A stretch of 64,000 bases of DNA from sequence record KX452698. The stretch is one strand, 5' to 3'. The notes under the pieces were generated by a model. That model did no database searches. It worked only from the letters and a program-made list of their open reading frames with translations, and was not told the DNA's origin. This document shows, one piece after another, positions 4,152 through 43,695 of the stretch (position 1 is its first letter; every line of letters starts with the position of its first letter). A program made the position numbers and the translations under genes. The stretch is from Shigella phage KNP5.

Positions 4152-4338
4152 TATCTAAAATGTTGAAGTTAAAAGATACAGCCCAGTCAGTGCAGACCGT
4201 AACCTTTTTAATACAATTATCTTCAACCTCTAGCGGTTCAAACCAATATTCAATAATTTCTTTATGCCCAATATCATCTTTTACTTCGCATTCAAAATGC
4301 TGACTCATCATAACATTTTTAAATTCATCAAAAGTCAT
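4075..4338 (-). CDS. Hypothetical protein (87 aa)
   Basis: ORF directly 3' of gene 47 with ATGA-type start/stop overlap. Confidence 0.45.
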   Translation of the reverse strand: MTFDEFKNVMMSQHFECEVKDDIGHKEIIEYWFEPLEVEDNCIKKVTVCTDWAVSFNFNILDNDTPKSLQDMAVSCIKDAYCEVFDI

Positions 4339-5354
4339 TGTGTTGCCTCTACATATAGCTGATTTGCATATTGAATAAGTGCTTCGCGGTCAGAATCAGT
4401 GATGTCTGGAATTGCATTAATGTATTCTTCCATCAACGTCTGAAGAGATTGAACTTCAACTTCTTCACTATCATCTGACTCGACAGAGTTATCAATCTTT
4501 GACACAACTCGTAATGAATGCACAACTTTTTCTAGTTCAGATTCAAACTTCGTTAGATTTTTGTCTACTTCAGTTACTATAACACGTACTGATAGATTTG
4601 TAAAATCTTTATAGTCAATTTTTCCCTTAAATGGATATTGAATTCGACGATGCCAGGTGGTGTTGTTTGGAATAAATTCCATTCGTTCTGTTTCTGTATC
4701 AAACATCCAGAACCCGCGAGGGTCATTCTCGTCACCTGCAGTTAGTGTCCATGGTGTCCCAATATATCTGACGTTAGCAGCCTCAGAGATAGTATGGAAG
4801 TGACCAGACCACACCTCTTTATAAGTCTTAAGGAAATCAGGTTCAAGACCGTGAGATTTCATTCCTTTATAAAAATAAAATCCATTCAGTTCCCAGTGAC
4901 CAACACAAAAAGAAGCAGATGAAGTTTTGATGTGTTCAAGAATTTCACCAGTATTTTCTTCACACATCCAAGGAATTAAATCAATCAAACATCCGTCAAA
5001 ATCTACTGTAGTAGGCTTATCATATACTTTAACATTAGGATATTTAGCCAAAAGCTCAGTAGAAGCATTTGGATGCATTACATTTTTGTAGTGGAGATCA
5101 TGATTTCCTACAACAGTATGTAGGGTAATACCAGCATCATCAAGCATTTGAACTATTTCACGGGCAAACTCCATAGTTTTATGCGTGATTGCTTTTCGCA
5201 CATCAAAAATATCACCATATTGAATCCATACAGTAATTCCATTTTTCTTAGAATATTCTATCGCTTGCTTAATTCCATCAATTTGAATACCGCGAATCCA
5301 CTCATCATCAGCTTTAACGCCTAAATGCCAATCACCCAAGTTTAGTATTTTCAT
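4335..5354 (-). CDS. 47: Recombination exonuclease subunit gp47 (Mre11/SbcD-like phosphoesterase, 339 aa)
   Basis: N-terminal LNLGDWHLG metallophosphatase motif, GNHD motif; length equals T4 gp47. Confidence 0.95.
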   Translation of the reverse strand: MKILNLGDWHLGVKADDEWIRGIQIDGIKQAIEYSKKNGITVWIQYGDIFDVRKAITHKTMEFAREIVQMLDDAGITLHTVVGNHDLHYKNVMHPNASTELLAKYPNVKVYDKPTTVDFDGCLIDLIPWMCEENTGEILEHIKTSSASFCVGHWELNGFYFYKGMKSHGLEPDFLKTYKEVWSGHFHTISEAANVRYIGTPWTLTAGDENDPRGFWMFDTETERMEFIPNNTTWHRRIQYPFKGKIDYKDFTNLSVRVIVTEVDKNLTKFESELEKVVHSLRVVSKIDNSVESDDSEEVEVQSLQTLMEEYINAIPDITDSDREALIQYANQLYVEATQ

Positions 5355-5831
5355 GGTGTCTTTTCCATCCTAATTTAGCTGCTTTTGAAACCAGTTCTTT
5401 AATTTTTCCTTTTGTCCATTCAGGACCAGGAGGTTCATGACATAACATTTGCTTAACTCCGTTATTATACCATTTTTTACCTTTATTATGTGATGAAGCT
5501 TTAAATTTATTTGACCTTCCTTTTACATAACCTTTTGGAATATAAGGCAAAAAGGNNNNNNNNNNNNNNNNNNNNNNNNNNNNNNNNNNNNNNNNNNNNN
5601 NNNNNNNNNNNNNNNNNNNNNNNNNNNNNNNNNNNNNNNNNNNNNNNNNNNNNNTGAATCAAATAAGTGAGGATTATCTGAAAGCTCTTTATTATAAATT
5701 TTCTTATACTTTTTAGATAAAACTGAACCATGATATCCAGCTAAATGCCTATCTAAAGACGTAGATCCAATATAAAAAGGAGGAAGTTTATCTCCACTAT
5801 ATATTGTTAAATAAGTTATATATTTTTTCAT
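5332..5831 (-). CDS. GIY-YIG-like ORF (possible seg-type free-standing homing endonuclease) broken by a 99-N gap
   Basis: N-terminal fragment KKYITYLTIYSGDKLPPFYIGSTSLDRHLAGYHG resembles the GIY...YIG...R...H nuclease motif; basic C-terminal fragment on other side of gap in a different frame. Confidence 0.35.
5556..5654. other. Run of 99 N (assembly gap or masked sequence)
   Basis: Direct observation; ORF calls crossing it are unreliable. Confidence 0.99.
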
Positions 5832-33491: not shown

Positions 33492-33965
33492 TTATTTGAA
33501 TGATTTGACGTACTGAATAGAGCCTTTGCTATTCACGAAAGCGATTTTACCATTTTTGTTATACATGGTAGCAGTACGCTGATAACCATAAGTTTGTTTA
33601 CCAGATTGATAACCAACTAATGCAAAATTATCTTCACCCATTTTATTCTGCTTCGCGCGGATACGTTCATGACCATGTGCCATAAGAACCTTAGCGTCGC
33701 CAGTTGCAATGGATCTACGAGTTTTTTCATCTTCAACTGTATTAACAAAGTCGTCAAATGAATCAAATTTAGCGTGAGATTTATTATACAGTTTTCCATC
33801 TACTGCATAATTATATCCCTGTACATCCATCTCAACTTCTGTACCATCATCCAATACAGCAGTGATTTTTTGACCTTTTTTAAATTTCAAAAGATCAGTA
33901 AAAGATTCAGCGATAATTTGAGAATTAATAGCTGCTTCAGTGATAAATTCTTGATATGTTTTCAT
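33492..33965 (-). CDS. Internal-protein-like head protein with capsid-targeting leader (157 aa)
   Basis: N-terminus MKTYQEFITE-A matches T4 internal-protein CTS and prohead protease site. Confidence 0.6.
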   Translation of the reverse strand: MKTYQEFITEAAINSQIIAESFTDLLKFKKGQKITAVLDDGTEVEMDVQGYNYAVDGKLYNKSHAKFDSFDDFVNTVEDEKTRRSIATGDAKVLMAHGHERIRAKQNKMGEDNFALVGYQSGKQTYGYQRTATMYNKNGKIAFVNSKGSIQYVKSFK

Positions 33966-33974
33966 GTGTTTCCT

Positions 33975-34391
33975 TTAAATGTAAATAGTTTTACCGTAGT
34001 ATTTATACCAGTGTGGCTTCATTAAAATTTTTTCATCGAGTCGTTGTTGACTCAACTTAATAGCTGATTTGCATGGATTATAATCATTTTTCCATTCTGC
34101 TGGAATATCGCTGATGTCAGGAACTTCAGTATCTTTTATATTAAACCCACGTTTTAAGCATTCCGTTATAATGTCTGATTGACGCTTTCGCAAAAATTCT
34201 AACTTATCATAAAAGAACGTAACATGACCAGAGCCTAAAATAAACTCGGAAGATATTTTAAAATCTTTAACCCGCTTACCATTTGCAACATGTTTACGAA
34301 CTATACCAAAAACACGCGGCAGTTCACGGTATTCTGCGATTAAATGTTGATCAGCAAGTTCAGATACTAAAGTCAAATTAATACGAGTCAT
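33975..34391 (-). CDS. denV: Endonuclease V, pyrimidine-dimer DNA glycosylase (138 aa)
   Basis: [28 protein letters not shown]...; same length as T4 DenV. Confidence 0.9.
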
Positions 34392-37900: not shown

Positions 37901-38446
37901 TTATATCATACTATTTAAGAGATGTAAACTATTTTTAATTTTACAAATTCGTTCAGCTTCTTCAACGGCGGCGGCGATAATGCTTTTAGCTATAGGAGTA
38001 CTAATACTAGTAGCTTTTACACTTAACACGATTTCTTTATCTTTACTAGGCCAACCCCATGATTTTTCACCATGAGTGCCTTTAATAACAGCAGACACCT
38101 CAAGTGAGCATCCACTGTCACATGTTTTTACATTAACAACCCAAGGGTCACTTTTCTCAACCGATTTCTCAGCCGGTTTATCCCAGTAAATATTAAGAAT
38201 ACGTGGGACATCAAATTTAGCAGGGCAAATCTTAACTGTAAGACCTTCGCTTTCTAGCCAATTAATAAGAGGGCGTTCATACATGCGGCGATGTGGGCTT
38301 TGGACTCGACAAGCCTTGTGCCCATTGCTTGCGGCTTCACTAAGCTGTTCTAATACCTGTTTTTGCATTATTGATAAGATATCATCAAAAGATTTTTCGG
38401 AAGTTTCATTCAGTTCGGTATAAAGAGACATAACGGTTTTCCTCAA
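37901..38446 (-). CDS. Hypothetical protein (181 aa)
   Basis: Minus-strand ORF. Confidence 0.5.
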   Translation of the reverse strand: MRKTVMSLYTELNETSEKSFDDILSIMQKQVLEQLSEAASNGHKACRVQSPHRRMYERPLINWLESEGLTVKICPAKFDVPRILNIYWDKPAEKSVEKSDPWVVNVKTCDSGCSLEVSAVIKGTHGEKSWGWPSKDKEIVLSVKATSISTPIAKSIIAAAVEEAERICKIKNSLHLLNSMI

Positions 38447-38487
38447 ATTGTAGGCTCATAATATCTCAATCATGAGCCTATGTAAAC

Positions 38488-38751
38488 TTATTTCATATTA
38501 TTGAAATATTCTTCTGCGATTTCGTCGTTATCGTGGTAAACTTTAGAAGACAGTTTAACATAACCTTCTGCTGTGAACATATTAATCACAACCTTTACAG
38601 TATACCACTGTCCGTCTTCATTACCCATTACTGCGTAAGTTTCAAACATCGGATGGTCAGGACCGATAACTTTAATATCATTCACTGTACGACCGAAATC
38701 TTCTGAAACGCATTTCATAAAGAAGTTGAACAGTTCGCCGTAATTATCCAT
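38488..38751 (-). CDS. Hypothetical protein (87 aa from ATG 38749-38751)
   Basis: GGAG RBS; track start at 38805 lies inside promoter -10 element. Confidence 0.5.
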   Translation of the reverse strand: MDNYGELFNFFMKCVSEDFGRTVNDIKVIGPDHPMFETYAVMGNEDGQWYTVKVVINMFTAEGYVKLSSKVYHDNDEIAEEYFNNMK

Positions 38752-38781
38752 TTCATTCTCCAAGTTGTTTTTCTGTATCAG

Positions 38782-38828
38782 TAGTTGATAGTTGTATAGT
38801 ACCATGGAAGAGCAGGGATGTAAATAGT
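38782..38828 (-). promoter_or_regulatory. T4-type early promoter
   Basis: Plus-strand gttgatagttgtatagtacc ... atgtaaatag repeat family. Confidence 0.5.
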
Positions 38829-38959
38829 TTTGTGAAAAAATTTTTAAAAATTTTTAGGGAATTCTAGGGCAGGGAGGGGCAATTAAAAGATAGGATAATA
38901 TATTATAAAGGGTAGAAACTAAATGATGTCTAGAGAGGTCCAGAAAGGCCTAGATACCA

Positions 38960-38990
38960 AAAAGCCCCAACCTTTTGGTCGGGGTTAAGA
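38960..38990 (-). terminator. Intrinsic terminator 3' of internal-protein-like gene
   Basis: CCCCGACC-AAAA-GGUUGGGG stem-loop followed by UUUUU; near-identical copy at 39519-39549. Confidence 0.6.
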
Positions 38991-38993
38991 ATG

Positions 38994-39467
38994 TTATTTG
39001 ATTTGTTTAGCAGACCAAATGCGGTCTTTAATAATTTTTTGAATGTCTTCAACATACTCAAGAGAGTGAACATGTGGATTATCTTTGAAACTATAAGCAC
39101 GGGCTAACTTTTGGCCTTCGGTTTTGATTACTAAAAGCTCTTTAAGGATAGCTTCATATTTAGAGATAATTCCTTTAACAATATTTTTTTCTTGTGCAAC
39201 TTTAGGATCTGCTTTAGGAGCAGGTTTACCCGAAGCCTTTGCAAAAGCAGCGCCAGTAGCAACTAGACTTTTCCAGGCCATACTAACCGCATTTCCCGTA
39301 AATCCTTCTGCTTTCATGTCGCGAGCAAATTGGAATCGTGATTCGTCAGAAGCATCTTTATAGGAATATTTACCCGCTGCAATGGCTGCTTTTGCGACAG
39401 CTTGAATTTCGGTGCTAGATGCTTCATTTAACACCGCTTCATTTAAAAATTGAGCATATGATTTCAT
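38994..39467 (-). CDS. Internal-protein-like head protein with capsid-targeting leader (157 aa)
   Basis: N-terminus MKSYAQFLNE-A; Ala/Lys-rich body; bracketed by repeated terminator hairpins. Confidence 0.55.
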   Translation of the reverse strand: MKSYAQFLNEAVLNEASSTEIQAVAKAAIAAGKYSYKDASDESRFQFARDMKAEGFTGNAVSMAWKSLVATGAAFAKASGKPAPKADPKVAQEKNIVKGIISKYEAILKELLVIKTEGQKLARAYSFKDNPHVHSLEYVEDIQKIIKDRIWSAKQIK

Positions 39468-39518
39468 CTTATTTCCTGTTTTAATTCGTGGATTTAATAT
39501 ACTACTATATTTATACTA

Positions 39519-39549
39519 AAAAGCCCCAACCTTTCGGTCGGGGCTAAGC
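39519..39549 (-). terminator. Intrinsic terminator, likely 3' end of stable RNA
   Basis: CCCCGACC-GAAA-GGUUGGGG followed by UUUUU on minus strand. Confidence 0.55.
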
Positions 39550-39550
39550 C

Positions 39551-39850
39551 TTGCGGCAACCTTGTCGGGGTTCCACCTGCTAAGGCAAGTGTTTGTACGA
39601 AACGCCGGGATTCGAACCCGGTTATTAAGCAGTTGACGCTACTCAATATTTTTAAAAGGCCATATCTCGACCATATCCGAACGTTCCGTCAAAAACGCTA
39701 CTCGGCTTACGGCAAAGATATTTCCTCGAATCGATAATTCGGTGCGCCGTTTCAGCTGTGATAGTAAAGAACCAGAACACAGTAAAACTGTGGGAGGAAC
39801 TATACTCCAGGGAACATCAGTCCGACGACTTACCGGTAGCGACCCGGTTT
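39551..39850 (-). ncRNA. Putative stable small RNA(s) with tRNA-like T-arm
   Basis: No credible ORF, locally elevated GC, CCGGGUUCGAAUCCCGG T-arm-like element, ends at terminator; boundaries uncertain. Confidence 0.35.
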
Positions 39851-39851
39851 C

Positions 39852-40202
39852 TTAATATTCTTTTAAAGTATCAATCTGTTCACGACGTTTACGCCATAAA
39901 TCAATTGCTTCATACGCAGATTCAGCATTTCGAATTAGTCGGCATTTGTGTAAAGACTTATGATTTTGATATTGTGTAGATAACGGAATTTTATCTAAAA
40001 GGTCTTTACGTTCAAAGTATTCGTAACCATCTAAGCCAAATGAACGATTTTTAAGAAATTGCCAATGACCATATTCGTTTTCGACATAAACATAATCCGC
40101 ATGTTGATAAAGCAAATTAATTACACGTTCAGAAATAACAGTGTCATTGTGATTAAAATAAAATGTTAAATCATGAACTACTAAATAAACATTACCTTTC
40201 AT
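39852..40202 (-). CDS. Hypothetical protein (116 aa) directly 3' of tRNA-Arg
   Basis: Minus-strand ORF. Confidence 0.5.
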   Translation of the reverse strand: MKGNVYLVVHDLTFYFNHNDTVISERVINLLYQHADYVYVENEYGHWQFLKNRSFGLDGYEYFERKDLLDKIPLSTQYQNHKSLHKCRLIRNAESAYEAIDLWRKRREQIDTLKEY

Positions 40203-40219
40203 ATTTTCCTCACTTAATT

Positions 40220-40295
40220 GGTCGAGACAGTAGGGATCGAACCTACGACCTAGGACTTAGAAGGTCCTTGCTCTTCCTTCTGAGCTATGCCTCGT
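40220..40295 (-). tRNA. tRNA-Arg (anticodon UCU), CCA encoded
   Basis: Cloverleaf folded by hand; anticodon loop CUUCUAA; T-arm GUAGGUUCGAUCCCUAC. Confidence 0.8.
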
Positions 40296-40299
40296 ATTT

Positions 40300-40374
40300 G
40301 GCGGACATGCATGGATTCGAACCATGGACCAATTGATTAACAGTCAACTGCTCTACCACTGAGCTACACATCCA
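40300..40374 (-). tRNA. tRNA-Asn (anticodon GUU), CCA encoded
   Basis: Acceptor GGAUGUG/CAUGUCC, anticodon loop CUGUUAA, T-loop GGUUCGAAUCC. Confidence 0.7.
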
Positions 40375-40378
40375 AATT

Positions 40379-40465
40379 GGTGGGGAGTGATGGAGTCGAA
40401 CCACCCGAGTCGCAATGACAATGGATTTACAGTCCACACCGCTACCTCTACGGGATAACTCCCCT
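40379..40465 (-). tRNA. tRNA-Tyr (anticodon GUA), long variable arm, CCA encoded
   Basis: Acceptor GGGGAGU/ACUCCCC, anticodon loop CUGUAAA, class II extra arm. Confidence 0.7.
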
Positions 40466-40477
40466 AATTCTTAATTT

Positions 40478-40552
40478 GGTGGCCCTGGGTGGAATTGAAC
40501 CACCATCTGGCGATTATGAGTCGCTTGCTTGAACCTTCCAGCTACAGGGCCT
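40478..40552 (-). tRNA. tRNA-Ile (anticodon CAU, probably lysidine-modified; tRNA-Met not excluded)
   Basis: Perfect acceptor GGCCCUG/CAGGGCC; anticodon loop CUCAUAA; adjacent to tRNA-Thr as in the T4 Thr-Ile dimer. Confidence 0.75.
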
Positions 40553-40553
40553 T

Positions 40554-40629
40554 GGTGCTGATTGACGGAATCGAACCGCCGACCTTCTCATTACAAGTGA
40601 GTTGCTCTACCTACTGAGCTAAATCAGCA
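40554..40629 (-). tRNA. tRNA-Thr (anticodon UGU)
   Basis: Acceptor GCUGAUU/AAUCAGC; anticodon loop CUUGUAA. Confidence 0.8.
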
Positions 40630-40634
40630 AAACT

Positions 40635-40724
40635 GGCGGAGGCGATAGGATTTGAACCTATGAGTCGCCGGAGCGACTGCCGGTTTTCAAGACCGGTGCA
40701 TTAAACCACTCTGCCACGCCTCCA
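40635..40724 (-). tRNA. tRNA-Ser (anticodon UGA), long variable arm
   Basis: Acceptor GGAGGCG/CGCCUCC; anticodon loop CUUGAAA. Confidence 0.8.
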
Positions 40725-40726
40725 GT

Positions 40727-40800
40727 CTCCATACAAGGATTTGAACCTTGGACCTCCTGATCCCAAATCAGGCGCTCTACCAAACTGAGCTACACGGAGT
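40727..40800 (-). tRNA. tRNA-Pro (anticodon UGG), CCA not encoded
   Basis: C1-G72 acceptor; anticodon loop UUUGGGA; 2 nt from tRNA-Ser (dimeric precursor arrangement). Confidence 0.75.
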
Positions 40801-40809
40801 AAATTAAAT

Positions 40810-40884
<75 letters not shown>

Positions 40885-40889
40885 AATTT

Positions 40890-40976
40890 GGTGCGAGAAG
40901 TGGGACTCGAACCCACAAGGAAATCATTCCGCAGCATTTTAAGTGCTGTGCCTTTACCAATTTGACCATTCTCGCG
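40890..40976 (-). tRNA. tRNA-Leu (anticodon UAA), long variable arm
   Basis: Acceptor GCGAGAA/UUCUCGC; anticodon loop CUUAAAA. Confidence 0.8.
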
Positions 40977-40977
40977 C

Positions 40978-41050
40978 TGGGAATAAAGGACTCGAACCTT
41001 TGCATCCTGGAATCAAAATCCAGTGCCTTACCAACTTGGCTAATTCCCAA
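40978..41050 (-). tRNA. tRNA-Gln (anticodon UUG), CCA not encoded
   Basis: U1-A72 acceptor UGGGAAU/AUUCCCA; anticodon loop UUUUGAU; 1 nt from tRNA-Leu. Confidence 0.75.
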
Positions 41051-41415: not shown

Positions 41416-41514
41416 NNNNNNNNNNNNNNNNNNNNNNNNNNNNNNNNNNNNNNNNNNNNNNNNNNNNNNNNNNNNNNNNNNNNNNNNNNNNNNNNNNNNN
41501 NNNNNNNNNNNNNN
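41416..41514. other. Run of 99 N (assembly gap or masked sequence)
   Basis: Direct observation; identical length to the gap at 5556-5654. Confidence 0.99.
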
Positions 41515-42611: not shown

Positions 42612-42660
42612 GTAGTTGATAGGGTAATAGTATCACAACTAAAACCCTATGTAAACAACT
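42612..42660 (-). promoter_or_regulatory. T4-type early promoter
   Basis: Plus-strand ...tatgtaaacaactttgtgaaattattttaaatc repeat family. Confidence 0.5.
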
Positions 42661-42668
42661 TTGTGAAA

Positions 42669-42926
42669 TTATTTTAAATCTTCTAATCGTTTCTTCATCT
42701 TAGAACCATTTTTAGCAATTTCTCCTGCATCGGAGCATAATGCTAAAAGTGCTTTAACTTTAGTTTGGTCTCCTTTAAAAGATGAAGGATCGACTGCAGC
42801 AGCAAGTTCTTTAATACGAGAGAAAAGACGCTCAGCTTCAGCTAAAGCCATTCCAAGCTTTACTTCCATACCGTGAGAAGATTCAGTGATAGTGGTTTTT
42901 GTAGCAAACTCTTTGAAAGTTTTCAT
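42669..42926 (-). CDS. Internal-protein-like head protein with capsid-targeting leader (85 aa), at the T4 ipI position
   Basis: N-terminus MKTFKEFATK...; directly 3' of 57B and its own early promoter. Confidence 0.55.
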   Translation of the reverse strand: MKTFKEFATKTTITESSHGMEVKLGMALAEAERLFSRIKELAAAVDPSSFKGDQTKVKALLALCSDAGEIAKNGSKMKKRLEDLK

Positions 42927-42947
42927 TTTATTTTCCTAATTAATTTT

Positions 42948-42990
42948 GATGAGATAATAGTATCACTACCTCATCAGCATGTAAACAACT
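42948..42990 (-). promoter_or_regulatory. T4-type early promoter
   Basis: Plus-strand ...catgtaaacaactttgtgaaattattttaaatc, nearly identical to the copy at 42640-42670. Confidence 0.5.
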
Positions 42991-42998
42991 TTGTGAAA

Positions 42999-43695
<697 letters not shown>

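What the first reader, a model, noticed from the sequence alone, without database searches (positions are those of the whole stretch)
38960..39549. Second internal-protein-like gene carried as a cassette between two near-identical terminator hairpins
ORF 38994-39467 starts MKSYAQFLNE-A (CTS-like) and is Ala/Lys-rich. It is bracketed by two copies of the same 31-nt terminator element (38960-38990 and 39519-39549), differing at 2-3 positions. Repeated flanks of this kind provide homology for swapping accessory cassettes between related phages.
Basis: partly seen in the sequence, partly recalled or inferred. Interest (0 to 1): 0.55.

Follow-up and report, generated by a model that had tools for sequence, protein, structure and literature searches.

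The report
Hairpin-bounded internal-protein gene cassette
In this T4-like phage, a small late gene whose product looks like a capsid-packaged, injected "internal protein" sits between two copies of one terminator hairpin, and comparison with relatives shows that this hairpin is the joint at which such genes are lost, gained and stacked; the mechanism is known, but this gene family and this locus have not been recognised.

Summary
A 36-nt direct repeat (38954-38989 and 39513-39548, 33/36 identical, none expected by chance) brackets ORF 38994-39467 on the minus strand. Each copy is a minus-strand intrinsic-terminator hairpin.

The window is a Tequatrovirus. The ORF lies between e.8 and the rnaC/tRNA cluster, where T4 has one hairpin and no gene. 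The difference is an exact 559-bp indel bounded by the repeat. Relatives show four states:
- empty;
- this gene;
- a second gene X with the same kind of leader;
- X plus this gene.

The X-plus-gene junction is the chimera expected from unequal crossing-over at the hairpin. Two Mosigvirus genomes lose homology exactly at the hairpin.

The unit is self-contained: terminator, late promoter TATAAATA, Shine-Dalgarno, ORF, terminator. The protein starts MKSYAQFLNE|A, like T4's capsid-targeting leader; only three ORFs in the 64 kb start this way. A 97%-identical ortholog was detected in purified fD1 virions.

It is most likely an injected anti-defence protein, and its target is unknown. This is a new member of a known kind: an unannotated IP-like family at a third IP locus. 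Interest is moderate.

The parts
38954..38989 (-). Downstream copy of the 36-nt repeat. It is the intrinsic terminator of the cassette: stem-loop 38965-38984 (CCCCGACC-AAAA-GGUUGGGG) followed by CUUUUU. It begins 4 nt after the ORF's stop codon.
   Evidence: -15.1 kcal/mol
38994..39467 (-). ORF of 157 aa (17.3 kDa, pI 9.5; Ala 16.6%, Lys 13.4%). It has a CTS-like leader MKSYAQFLNE|A and a second LNE|A at residues 13-16. It belongs to PHROG 2280 (function unknown) and is named 'hypothetical' in every source. It is predicted all-helical with a disordered leader and a Pro/Lys-rich linker.
   Evidence: virion detection of the 97%-identical fD1 g140
39472..39477 (-). Shine-Dalgarno AGGAAA, 4 nt upstream of the ATG.
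   Evidence: read from the sequence; context printed
39508..39515 (-). Perfect T4 late-promoter box TATAAATA. It starts 2 nt after the U-tract of the upstream hairpin and ends 40 nt before the ATG.
   Evidence: The same string GGGGCTTTTTAGTATAAATA occurs upstream of the homolog in Klebsiella phage phiKp_22; ESCO10 has a close variant (GGGCCTTTTTGGTATAAATA).
39513..39548 (-). Upstream copy of the 36-nt repeat. It is the intrinsic terminator that closes the tRNA/rnaD/rnaC transcription unit: stem-loop 39522-39545 (AGCCCCGACC-GAAA-GGUUGGGGCU) followed by UUUUU. It is orthologous to the single hairpin of T4.
   Evidence: (-20.3 kcal/mol)
38488..38751 (-). Context: the e.8 homolog, the conserved gene on the downstream side of the site. 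The mechanical ORF runs to 38805. A promoter-like site (TTTACA-17-TACTAT) lies at 38824-38796.
39596..39852 (-). Context: homologs of T4 rnaC and rnaD (approximate limits, by alignment to T4). They form the conserved upstream side of the site, followed by the tRNA cluster at 40219-41049.

Best explanation
This is a self-contained late-gene cassette for a probable phage internal protein (IP). It sits at a recombination-prone site between e.8 and rnaC of a T4-like phage. Each step below is marked as shown or inferred.

1. The upstream hairpin ends the tRNA/rnaD/rnaC transcript (inferred from sequence).
2. Two bases after its U-tract lies the late promoter TATAAATA. It starts a monocistronic mRNA with its own Shine-Dalgarno sequence, and the downstream hairpin ends that mRNA 4 nt after the stop codon (inferred from sequence).
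3. The 157-aa product carries the T4-type capsid-targeting leader. That leader should deliver it into the prohead core, where the prohead protease removes it at LNE|A. The result is a basic, Lys/Ala-rich protein of about 16 kDa that is packaged with the DNA and injected. The motifs are shown, and virion association of the ortholog is shown by published proteomics. Cleavage and injection are inferred.
4. By analogy with the four characterised members of this class, its job after injection is most likely to disarm a host defence, plausibly a modification-dependent (type IV) restriction enzyme (inferred by class only).
5. The two 36-nt hairpin copies are the joint at which the cassette is lost, gained and stacked. 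Recombination between copies in one genome excises the gene and leaves one hybrid hairpin, the T4 state. Unequal exchange between a genome carrying this gene and one carrying gene X gives the X-plus-gene tandem and the empty site. The junction sequences are shown. The recombination itself is inferred.
For: Repeat and terminators.

Exact indel:
- T4 has e.8, one hairpin, then rnaC.
- T4 positions 4302-4860 align to window 38429-38988, and T4 4826-5169 align to window 39513-39852. The 35-nt T4 hairpin element therefore maps to both window copies.

Junction catalogue in 16 loci:
- Left flanks are the e.8 side, the X upstream (promoter-side) region, or the late promoter of this gene.
- Right flanks are this gene's stop codon or rnaC.
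- Combinations seen: e.8|gene, e.8|rnaC, Xup|gene, Xup|rnaC and P|rnaC.
- The middle hairpin of HP3.1, Sfk20 and G29 is the predicted chimera.

Breakpoints:
- About 23 of the 60 rows listed have an alignment that starts or ends at the hairpin.
- Homology between RB69 and SA35RD resumes at the first base of the hairpin.

Paired related hairpins also flank the homolog in Mosigvirus (26/36 by eye, both with the CCCCTTCC arm) and in Dhakavirus.

Internal-protein identity:
- Leader alignment.
- The motif ^MK[STA][YF].[EQ]F occurs in only three ORFs in the window.
- Late promoter.
- fD1 g140 scored PPAP at the strict threshold.
- The IP class is defined by a shared CTS only (PMC3012670).

Function by class:
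- Ip1, Ip2 and Ip3 each inhibit a different GmrSD (PMC12373910).
- Bas37_0260 inhibits McrBC (bioRxiv 10.1101/2025.11.20.689424).

Mechanistic precedent: PeSL-mediated shuffling and short-homology recombination in T4-type phages (PMC2839356).
Against: - There is no direct evidence of cleavage, packaging or injection for this protein.
- The fD1 proteome flagged 113-137 of 277 gene products as particle-associated, along with 672 host proteins, so it is not specific.
- The target is unknown. Pfam, NCBIfam, PDB sequence and fold searches gave nothing.
- Thirty-six nt is short for T4 homologous recombination. The literature cited speaks of patches below 50 bp.
- Exchange between co-infecting phages could use the long homology in e.8 and rnaC instead.
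- Gene X is bounded on its e.8 side by a different hairpin that shares only GGGCTTTTT with this one.
- In Jiaodavirus the gene persists with unlike hairpins.
Confidence: 0.75

Rival explanations
1. The gene is an ordinary late, non-virion accessory gene. The N-terminal resemblance to IP leaders is a leftover of recombination among 5' gene ends and does not direct packaging.
For: No family annotation and no structural match. The gene lies outside the two loci that the literature says hold all IP genes. The fD1 particle proteome is permissive.
Against: The leader is kept across four genera while the rest of the protein diverges to about 40% identity. Gene X shares nothing with this gene by BLASTP except those 11 residues. 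The motif is otherwise confined to the IP loci in this window. The ortholog passed the strict particle threshold.
Confidence: 0.15
2. The two hairpins are alike only because both must be good terminators. They play no part in rearrangements, which arise from recombination in the flanking conserved genes or from illegitimate events.
For: The same 20-nt stem-loop CCCCGACCGAAAGGTTGGGG recurs four times in an unrelated 251-kb viral contig, so the sequence may simply be a favoured terminator. The Jiaodavirus homolog has unlike flanking hairpins.
Against: The identity extends beyond the stem to the loop, the tail and 4-5 nt on each side (33/36). The indel against T4 is exact to the repeat. The tandem-state junction is a precise chimera. 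Homology breaks at the first base of the hairpin in RB69 versus SA35RD. Within SA35RD both copies share the lineage-specific CCCCTTCC arm.
Confidence: 0.1
3. The polymorphism is driven by a nuclease rather than by plain homologous recombination. One route is co-conversion from a nearby homing endonuclease. Another is a structure- or sequence-specific nick at the GCCC...GGGC palindrome.
For: T4 carries segB inside the adjacent tRNA cluster. Dhakavirus ESCO10 has a T5orf172/GIY-YIG-like ORF next to the cassette. Mosig's T4 deletions often involved GGGC/GCCC motifs, as summarised in PMC2839356.
Against: The window has no endonuclease gene between e.8 and tRNA-Arg. Co-conversion tracts normally end at variable points, whereas the junctions here are fixed at the hairpin.
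Confidence: 0.1

Closest known systems
T4 internal proteins IPI, IPII and IPIII, and other CTS-bearing IPs of T-even phages (e.g. Bas37_0260)
   Same: About 10-aa N-terminal leader (MK-T/S-Y-x-E/Q-F-I/L-x-E) ending in a prohead-protease-type site. Small, basic, Lys-rich and non-conserved body. Late promoter. Patchy presence among relatives. The ortholog was found in particles.
   Different: No sequence similarity beyond the leader. The gene lies at a third site, e.8/rnaC, not at the ipI or ipII-ipIII loci that the literature calls the only IP loci. Its target is unknown. Processing and injection are untested.
IP-associated repeats of about 70 bp at the T-even IP loci (Repoila et al. 1994, as described in PMC2839356)
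   Same: Direct repeats 5' and 3' of an IP gene that carry regulatory signals and are proposed to mediate shuffling.
   Different: Those repeats are built on T4 early promoters with weak AT-rich stem-loops. The window's own ipI-locus gene has such a pair: 69 nt, 83% identical, 42616-42684 and 42946-43014. Here the repeat is a 36-nt GC-rich intrinsic terminator, and the upstream copy abuts a late promoter.
PeSLs (promoter-early stem-loops) of RB49/phi1, PST/T4 and nt-1/KVP40 (Arbiol 2010; Comeau 2014)
   Same: A GGGG/CCCC stem-loop terminator is repeated on both sides of a small non-essential ORF. The related phage has a single element at the empty site. The cassette is transcriptionally insulated.
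   Different: No sigma-70-like early promoter is part of the element. The associated promoter is a late one. The element is shorter, 36 nt against about 100 bp. Minicircles were not tested.
Morons of lambdoid phages
   Same: A single accessory gene with its own promoter and terminator, inserted between conserved genes.
   Different: Morons are not defined by conserved flanking repeats and are thought to move by illegitimate recombination (discussion in PMC2839356). Here the flanks are homologous and coincide with the breakpoints.

Membership tests
T4-type internal proteins (CTS-bearing, encapsidated, injected) | N-terminal capsid-targeting leader resembling MKTYQEFIAE | tested here: met
   MKSYAQFLNE against MKTYQEFIAE. 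The motif ^MK[STA][YF].[EQ]F occurs in only three ORFs in 64 kb, and the other two are at the classical IP loci. The leader is conserved in homologs from four genera.
T4-type internal proteins (CTS-bearing, encapsidated, injected) | Prohead-protease (gp21) cleavage motif L/I-x-E followed by a small residue at the end of the leader (consensus taken from my own knowledge) | tested here: met
   LNE|A at residues 8-11 and again at 13-16. This is a motif only; cleavage was not observed.
T4-type internal proteins (CTS-bearing, encapsidated, injected) | Late expression | tested here: met
   Perfect TATAAATA at 39508-39515, 40 nt before the ATG. This is a motif only; there are no transcript data.
T4-type internal proteins (CTS-bearing, encapsidated, injected) | Present inside the virion | tested here: inconclusive
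   The 97%-identical fD1 g140 is listed as PPAP at the strict threshold. That study called 113-137 of 277 phage proteins particle-associated.
T4-type internal proteins (CTS-bearing, encapsidated, injected) | Leader removed in the prohead; protein injected with the DNA | not testable with these tools
   Needs N-terminal mapping of virion protein and injection assays.
T4-type internal proteins (CTS-bearing, encapsidated, injected) | Encoded at the ipI or the ipII-ipIII locus (a literature generalisation, not a mechanistic requirement) | tested here: not met
   The gene lies between e.8 and rnaC. [quoted passage not shown]
PeSL (promoter-early stem-loop) cassettes | Strong sigma-70-like early promoter combined with the stem-loop in one element of about 100 bp | tested here: not met
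   No promoter-like site overlaps either hairpin. The nearest on the minus strand is at 38824-38796, about 140 nt from the downstream copy. The upstream copy is followed by a late promoter instead.
PeSL (promoter-early stem-loop) cassettes | GC-rich (GGGG...CCCC) stem-loop acting as terminator or attenuator | tested here: met
   CCCCGACC/GGUUGGGG stems, -15 and -20 kcal/mol, each with a U5 tail. Function is inferred.
PeSL (promoter-early stem-loop) cassettes | Two copies flank a non-essential ORF; the relative lacking the ORF has one copy | tested here: met
   Window against T4, and 16 loci.
PeSL (promoter-early stem-loop) cassettes | Excision as minicircles | not testable with these tools
   Needs inverse PCR on infected cells or virion DNA.
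Repoila-type IP-locus repeats | Direct repeats of about 70 bp with a T4 early promoter and an AT-rich stem-loop on both sides of the IP gene | tested here: not met
   At this locus the repeat is 36 nt and is a GC-rich terminator. The classical type is present at the window's ipI locus (69 nt, 83%).
Intrinsic (rho-independent) terminators | GC-rich hairpin followed directly by a U-tract on the transcribed strand | tested here: met
   Relatives' annotators also call both terminators. Termination itself was not measured.

The most novel reading that the evidence does not exclude
The e.8/rnaC site is a third, so far unrecognised internal-protein locus of T-even phages. Its two CTS-bearing proteins, the 157-aa protein here and the 187-aa protein X, are injected inhibitors of host defences not covered by Ip1-3 or Bas37_0260. 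The GC-rich terminator hairpin acts as a dedicated recombination linker, a late-gene counterpart of PeSLs, that lets phages drop, pick up or stack these inhibitors.
Probability: 0.3. Interest if true: 0.6.

Novelty: new member of a known kind. Interest (0 to 1): 0.4.

Why it matters
All four characterised proteins with this leader (T4 Ip1, Ip2 and Ip3, and Bas37_0260) inhibit type IV restriction enzymes, each with a narrow target. Reviews and recent papers state that T-even phages hold such genes at two loci only.

This site adds a third locus with two further leader-bearing proteins. Both fall in PHROG 2280 but share only the leader by BLASTP. One is found in about 510 and the other in about 165 of roughly 770-780 related genome records. 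T4 and T2 have an empty site here, and T6 shows the hairpin without either cassette junction. Every source names both proteins 'hypothetical'. They are ready-made candidates for new anti-defence functions.

The four interconvertible states of the locus also give a simple natural system. With it one can measure how short regulatory hairpins drive gene gain and loss in large virulent phages.

Tried and rejected
Function from sequence or structure:
- Pfam, NCBIfam and PHROG searches gave no function.
- An AlphaFold2 model from 13 sequences reached pLDDT 73 and pTM 0.46. It is all-helical, with a disordered leader and linker.
- Foldseek against PDB gave only non-significant ferritin-like helical matches.
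- Foldseek against BFVD found only the protein's own family and uncharacterised proteins.
- The PDB profile search gave one hit to a designer PPR protein over 22 residues, which I take as compositional.

Wider sampling:
- The exact hairpin pattern found only 6 loci in IMG/VR, too few for a census.

Census of states:
- I tried junction-specific megablast queries.
- The tool joins the two hairpin copies into one place, so exact counts cannot be read off. Only rough numbers are given.

Papers:
- Repoila 1994 and the T4 genome review are not in the library.
- The fPS-2/65/90 paper contains no proteomics.

Ideas rejected:
- Target-site duplication by a transposable element. The repeat is a functional terminator, the cassette has no transposase, and the same element is the single-copy terminator in T4.
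- Chance similarity.
- A bidirectional terminator. On the plus strand the stem is not followed by a T-tract.

Full report
WHAT IS THERE

The window is a T4-like phage of the genus Tequatrovirus. The region 38400-40300 is 99.9% identical to Escherichia phage KNP1 and matches 778 phage records. Genes here run on the minus strand.

It encodes 157 aa beginning MKSYAQFLNEAVLNEASS. It has 16.6% Ala and 13.4% Lys, and pI 9.46.

They differ at 2 of 31 positions, and none is expected by chance (0.00 in 100 shuffles). The homology extends to 36 nt (38954-38989 and 39513-39548, 33/36, spacing 559 nt). There is no third copy in the window.

On the minus strand each copy is a GC-rich stem with a 4-nt loop followed by a U5 run. 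Predicted energies are -20.3 kcal/mol upstream and -15.1 kcal/mol downstream.

ANATOMY OF THE UNIT

Read along the minus strand, the order is as follows.
- Homologs of rnaD and rnaC, aligned to T4.
- The upstream hairpin with its U5 run.
- Two bases later, a perfect T4 late-promoter box TATAAATA (39508-39515).
- 30 nt later, a Shine-Dalgarno AGGAAA (39472-39477).
- The ORF.
- 4 nt after the stop codon, the downstream hairpin with its U5 run.
- About 140 nt further on, a promoter-like site (38824-38796), then the e.8 homolog.

The gene is therefore a monocistronic late unit, insulated on both sides. That these signals work is inferred from sequence. Annotators of related genomes independently mark both hairpins as terminators, and in phage Lutter they mark a promoter between them.

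COMPARISON WITH T4

T4 has e.8, a 285-bp spacer and then rnaC, with no gene between them and one copy of the hairpin.
- T4 locus positions 4302-4860 align to window 38429-38988 (94%).
- T4 positions 4826-5169 align to window 39513-39852 (90%).

The 35 nt of the T4 hairpin element therefore map to both window copies. The two genomes differ by an exact 559-bp segment made of one hairpin, the late promoter and the ORF. T4's single element has the left flank of the window's downstream copy and the loop and stem variants of the upstream copy. A crossover inside the repeat would leave exactly that.

THE LOCUS IN RELATIVES

I fetched 15 further loci and catalogued every hairpin with its flanks. Four states occur in Tequatrovirus.
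- A, empty: T4 and FriedrichZschokke. By alignment span, also T2, RB10, PST and KIT06.
- B, this gene between two hairpins: the window, G4507, Lutter, phiD1 and two IMG/VR contigs.
- C, a different gene X of 187-188 aa: Shfl2. X starts MKTYAEFLTE|AAKL. It has the hairpin upstream and a different AT-richer hairpin downstream.
- D, X, then the hairpin, then this gene, then the hairpin: HP3.1, Sfk20 and two IMG/VR contigs. G29 is the same, with X split by a frameshift.

Only three left flanks occur: the e.8 side, the X upstream (promoter-side) region, and this gene's promoter. Only two right flanks occur: this gene's stop codon and rnaC. The combinations seen are those expected if the hairpin is a universal joint. 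The middle hairpin of state D is the chimera Xup|hairpin|gene-stop. An unequal exchange between a B genome and a C genome would create it, and the reciprocal product is state A.

In the search with the T4 e.8-rnaC interval, about 23 of the 60 rows listed have an alignment that starts or ends at the hairpin.

Rough frequencies in the phage collection:
- This gene occurs in 510 records, 385 of them at 80% identity or more.
- Gene X occurs in 165 records.
- The D junction occurs in about 125 records.
- The empty state probably occurs in 100-160 records.

Exact counts are not possible because the tool merges the two hairpin copies.

OTHER GENERA

- Mosigvirus, breakpoint. RB69 carries e.8, the AT-rich hairpin and a frameshifted X at 96% protein identity to the Tequatrovirus version. 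SA35RD carries a 76%-identical homolog of this gene instead. The two genomes are collinear on both sides, and homology resumes at the first base of the hairpin.
- Mosigvirus, hairpin pair. In SA35RD the two hairpins flanking the gene are again related to each other (26/36 by eye). Both carry the lineage-specific arm CCCCTTCC, which suggests exchange between the copies.
- Dhakavirus. In ESCO10 the homolog is also flanked by two related hairpins, and the upstream one is followed by TATAAATA.
- Jiaodavirus. In Klebsiella phage phiKp_22 a 177-aa homolog sits directly after the tRNA genes. It is preceded by GCCCCGTC-TTCG-GACGGGGC-TTTTT-AG-TATAAATA, but its downstream hairpin is unrelated.

The gene and the terminator-plus-late-promoter arrangement are therefore old at this position. 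By parsimony the empty T4 state is a loss. The paired repeat is a feature of the T-even-proximal genera and is not a requirement for keeping the gene.

IS IT AN INTERNAL PROTEIN?

The IP class is defined by a shared capsid-targeting sequence on otherwise unrelated proteins (PMC3012670; PMC12373910).
- T4 IPII and IPIII start MKTYQEFIAE|A, and this protein starts MKSYAQFLNE|A.
- A scan of every ATG-initiated ORF of at least 40 aa in the 64 kb for ^MK[STA][YF].[EQ]F finds three. They are the gene at the ipII-ipIII locus (33492-33965, PHROG 'internal virion protein'), the gene at the ipI locus (42669-42926, 'internal head protein'), and this one.
- Homologs from four genera keep the leader while the body diverges to about 40% identity, and the C-terminal half is replaced in some.
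- Gene X shares only the first 11 residues with this protein by BLASTP, although PHROGs places both in family 2280.
- The sequence has L-x-E followed by Ala twice, at residues 8-11 and 13-16. This is the prohead-protease type of site, a consensus I take from my own knowledge.
- In the published LC-MS/MS analysis of purified fD1 particles, g140 is scored as particle-associated at the strict threshold and marked as having no T4 counterpart (PMC8309999 Table S3). It is 97% identical to the window protein.

That proteome is permissive: 113-137 of 277 phage proteins and 672 host proteins were detected. I count it as supportive, not decisive. I put the IP reading at about 0.7-0.75.

LIKELY FUNCTION

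Nothing can be read from the fold. The model is all-helical, with a disordered leader and a Pro/Lys-rich linker. It has no significant match in PDB or BFVD outside its own family, and there is no Pfam or NCBIfam hit.

The class gives the best guide.
- Ip1, Ip2 and Ip3 each block one GmrSD type IV restriction enzyme.
- The leader-bearing Bas37_0260 blocks McrBC.

An injected inhibitor of a host defence is therefore the most likely role, perhaps another modification-dependent nuclease. This is inference by class, at about 0.35-0.4 for type IV restriction specifically.

COMPARISON WITH WHAT IS KNOWN

Shuffling of IP genes between repeated regulatory elements has been described since Repoila et al. 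1994. PeSLs generalised the idea to T4-type phages, with a single element left at the empty site (PMC2839356 and PMC4122927).

The present case works the same way but is not a member of either element family.
- PeSLs and the IP-locus repeats are built on early promoters.
- The window's own ipI-locus gene shows the classical type, a 69-nt repeat at 83% identity that holds an early promoter and a small stem-loop.
- Here the repeat is a 36-nt GC-rich intrinsic terminator joined to a late promoter.

The GCCC...GGGC palindrome recalls the motif Mosig found at T4 deletion end-points, as summarised.

The literature states that IP genes are confined to two loci. All database names for this protein and for X are 'hypothetical'. 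The mechanism is therefore known, while the locus and the two leader-bearing proteins appear unrecognised.

VERDICT

This is a new member of a known kind, of moderate interest at 0.4. The main value lies in two testable anti-defence candidates and a tidy natural system for hairpin-mediated cassette gain and loss.

Noticed in passing
window 42616-42684 and 42946-43014: The IP-like gene at the ipI locus (42669-42926, MKTFKEFATK...) is flanked by a 69-nt direct repeat at 83% identity. The repeat contains an early-promoter-like TTTACA...TACTAT and a small stem-loop. This matches the published description of the IP-locus shuffling elements and differs in type from the hairpin repeat of the finding.
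   Followed up: partly
window 33492-33965: A third leader-bearing gene (157 aa, MKTYQEFITE|A, PHROG 'internal virion protein') lies directly after denV, with TATAAATA inside the 3' end of denV (34000-34007). The gene order here is e, denV, IP. In T4 it is e, ipIII, ipII, denV.
   Followed up: partly
window 39852-41049: The tRNA cluster has 10 tRNAs, including Asn, Tyr and Met, against 8 in T4. It has no segB. It has an extra 116-aa ORF (39852-40202, PHROG 3355, unknown) between rnaD and tRNA-Arg.
   Followed up: no
window 5556-5654 and 41416-41514: Two 99-base runs of N (masked sequence). The second interrupts ORFs between the tRNA cluster and the ipI locus.
   Followed up: no
L007 5205-8637 (IMG/VR contig IMGVR_UViG_3300045125_000071, 251 kb): An unrelated large viral contig has four intergenic repeat copies (78-100% identical over 37 nt). 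Three carry the same 20-nt stem-loop CCCCGACCGAAAGGTTGGGG plus a T-run; the fourth has CCCCAACC in the 5' arm. Each is followed about 65 nt later by a second repeated palindrome, and the copies bound small ORFs. This is a PeSL-like array that uses the same hairpin core.
   Followed up: partly
L018 1429-1991 (RB69) and L014 1287-1849 (G29): Gene X is split into two ORFs by a frameshift in RB69 and in G29, so this cassette gene is decaying in some genomes. RB69's copy is 96% identical in protein to the Tequatrovirus version, which suggests recent transfer between genera.
   Followed up: partly
L020 1736-2290 (Dhakavirus ESCO10): A T5orf172/MUG113 (GIY-YIG-like) ORF sits between tRNA-Arg and a shortened rnaC remnant, next to the cassette. 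Several annotations in this record look wrong; for example, the e.8 homolog is labelled 'RNA ligase 2'.
   Followed up: partly
L001 4193-4286 and L014 2574-2667: The rnaC homolog is annotated as tRNA-Lys(ttt) in G4507 and G29. In the window, ARAGORN and Rfam do not call it a tRNA.
   Followed up: no
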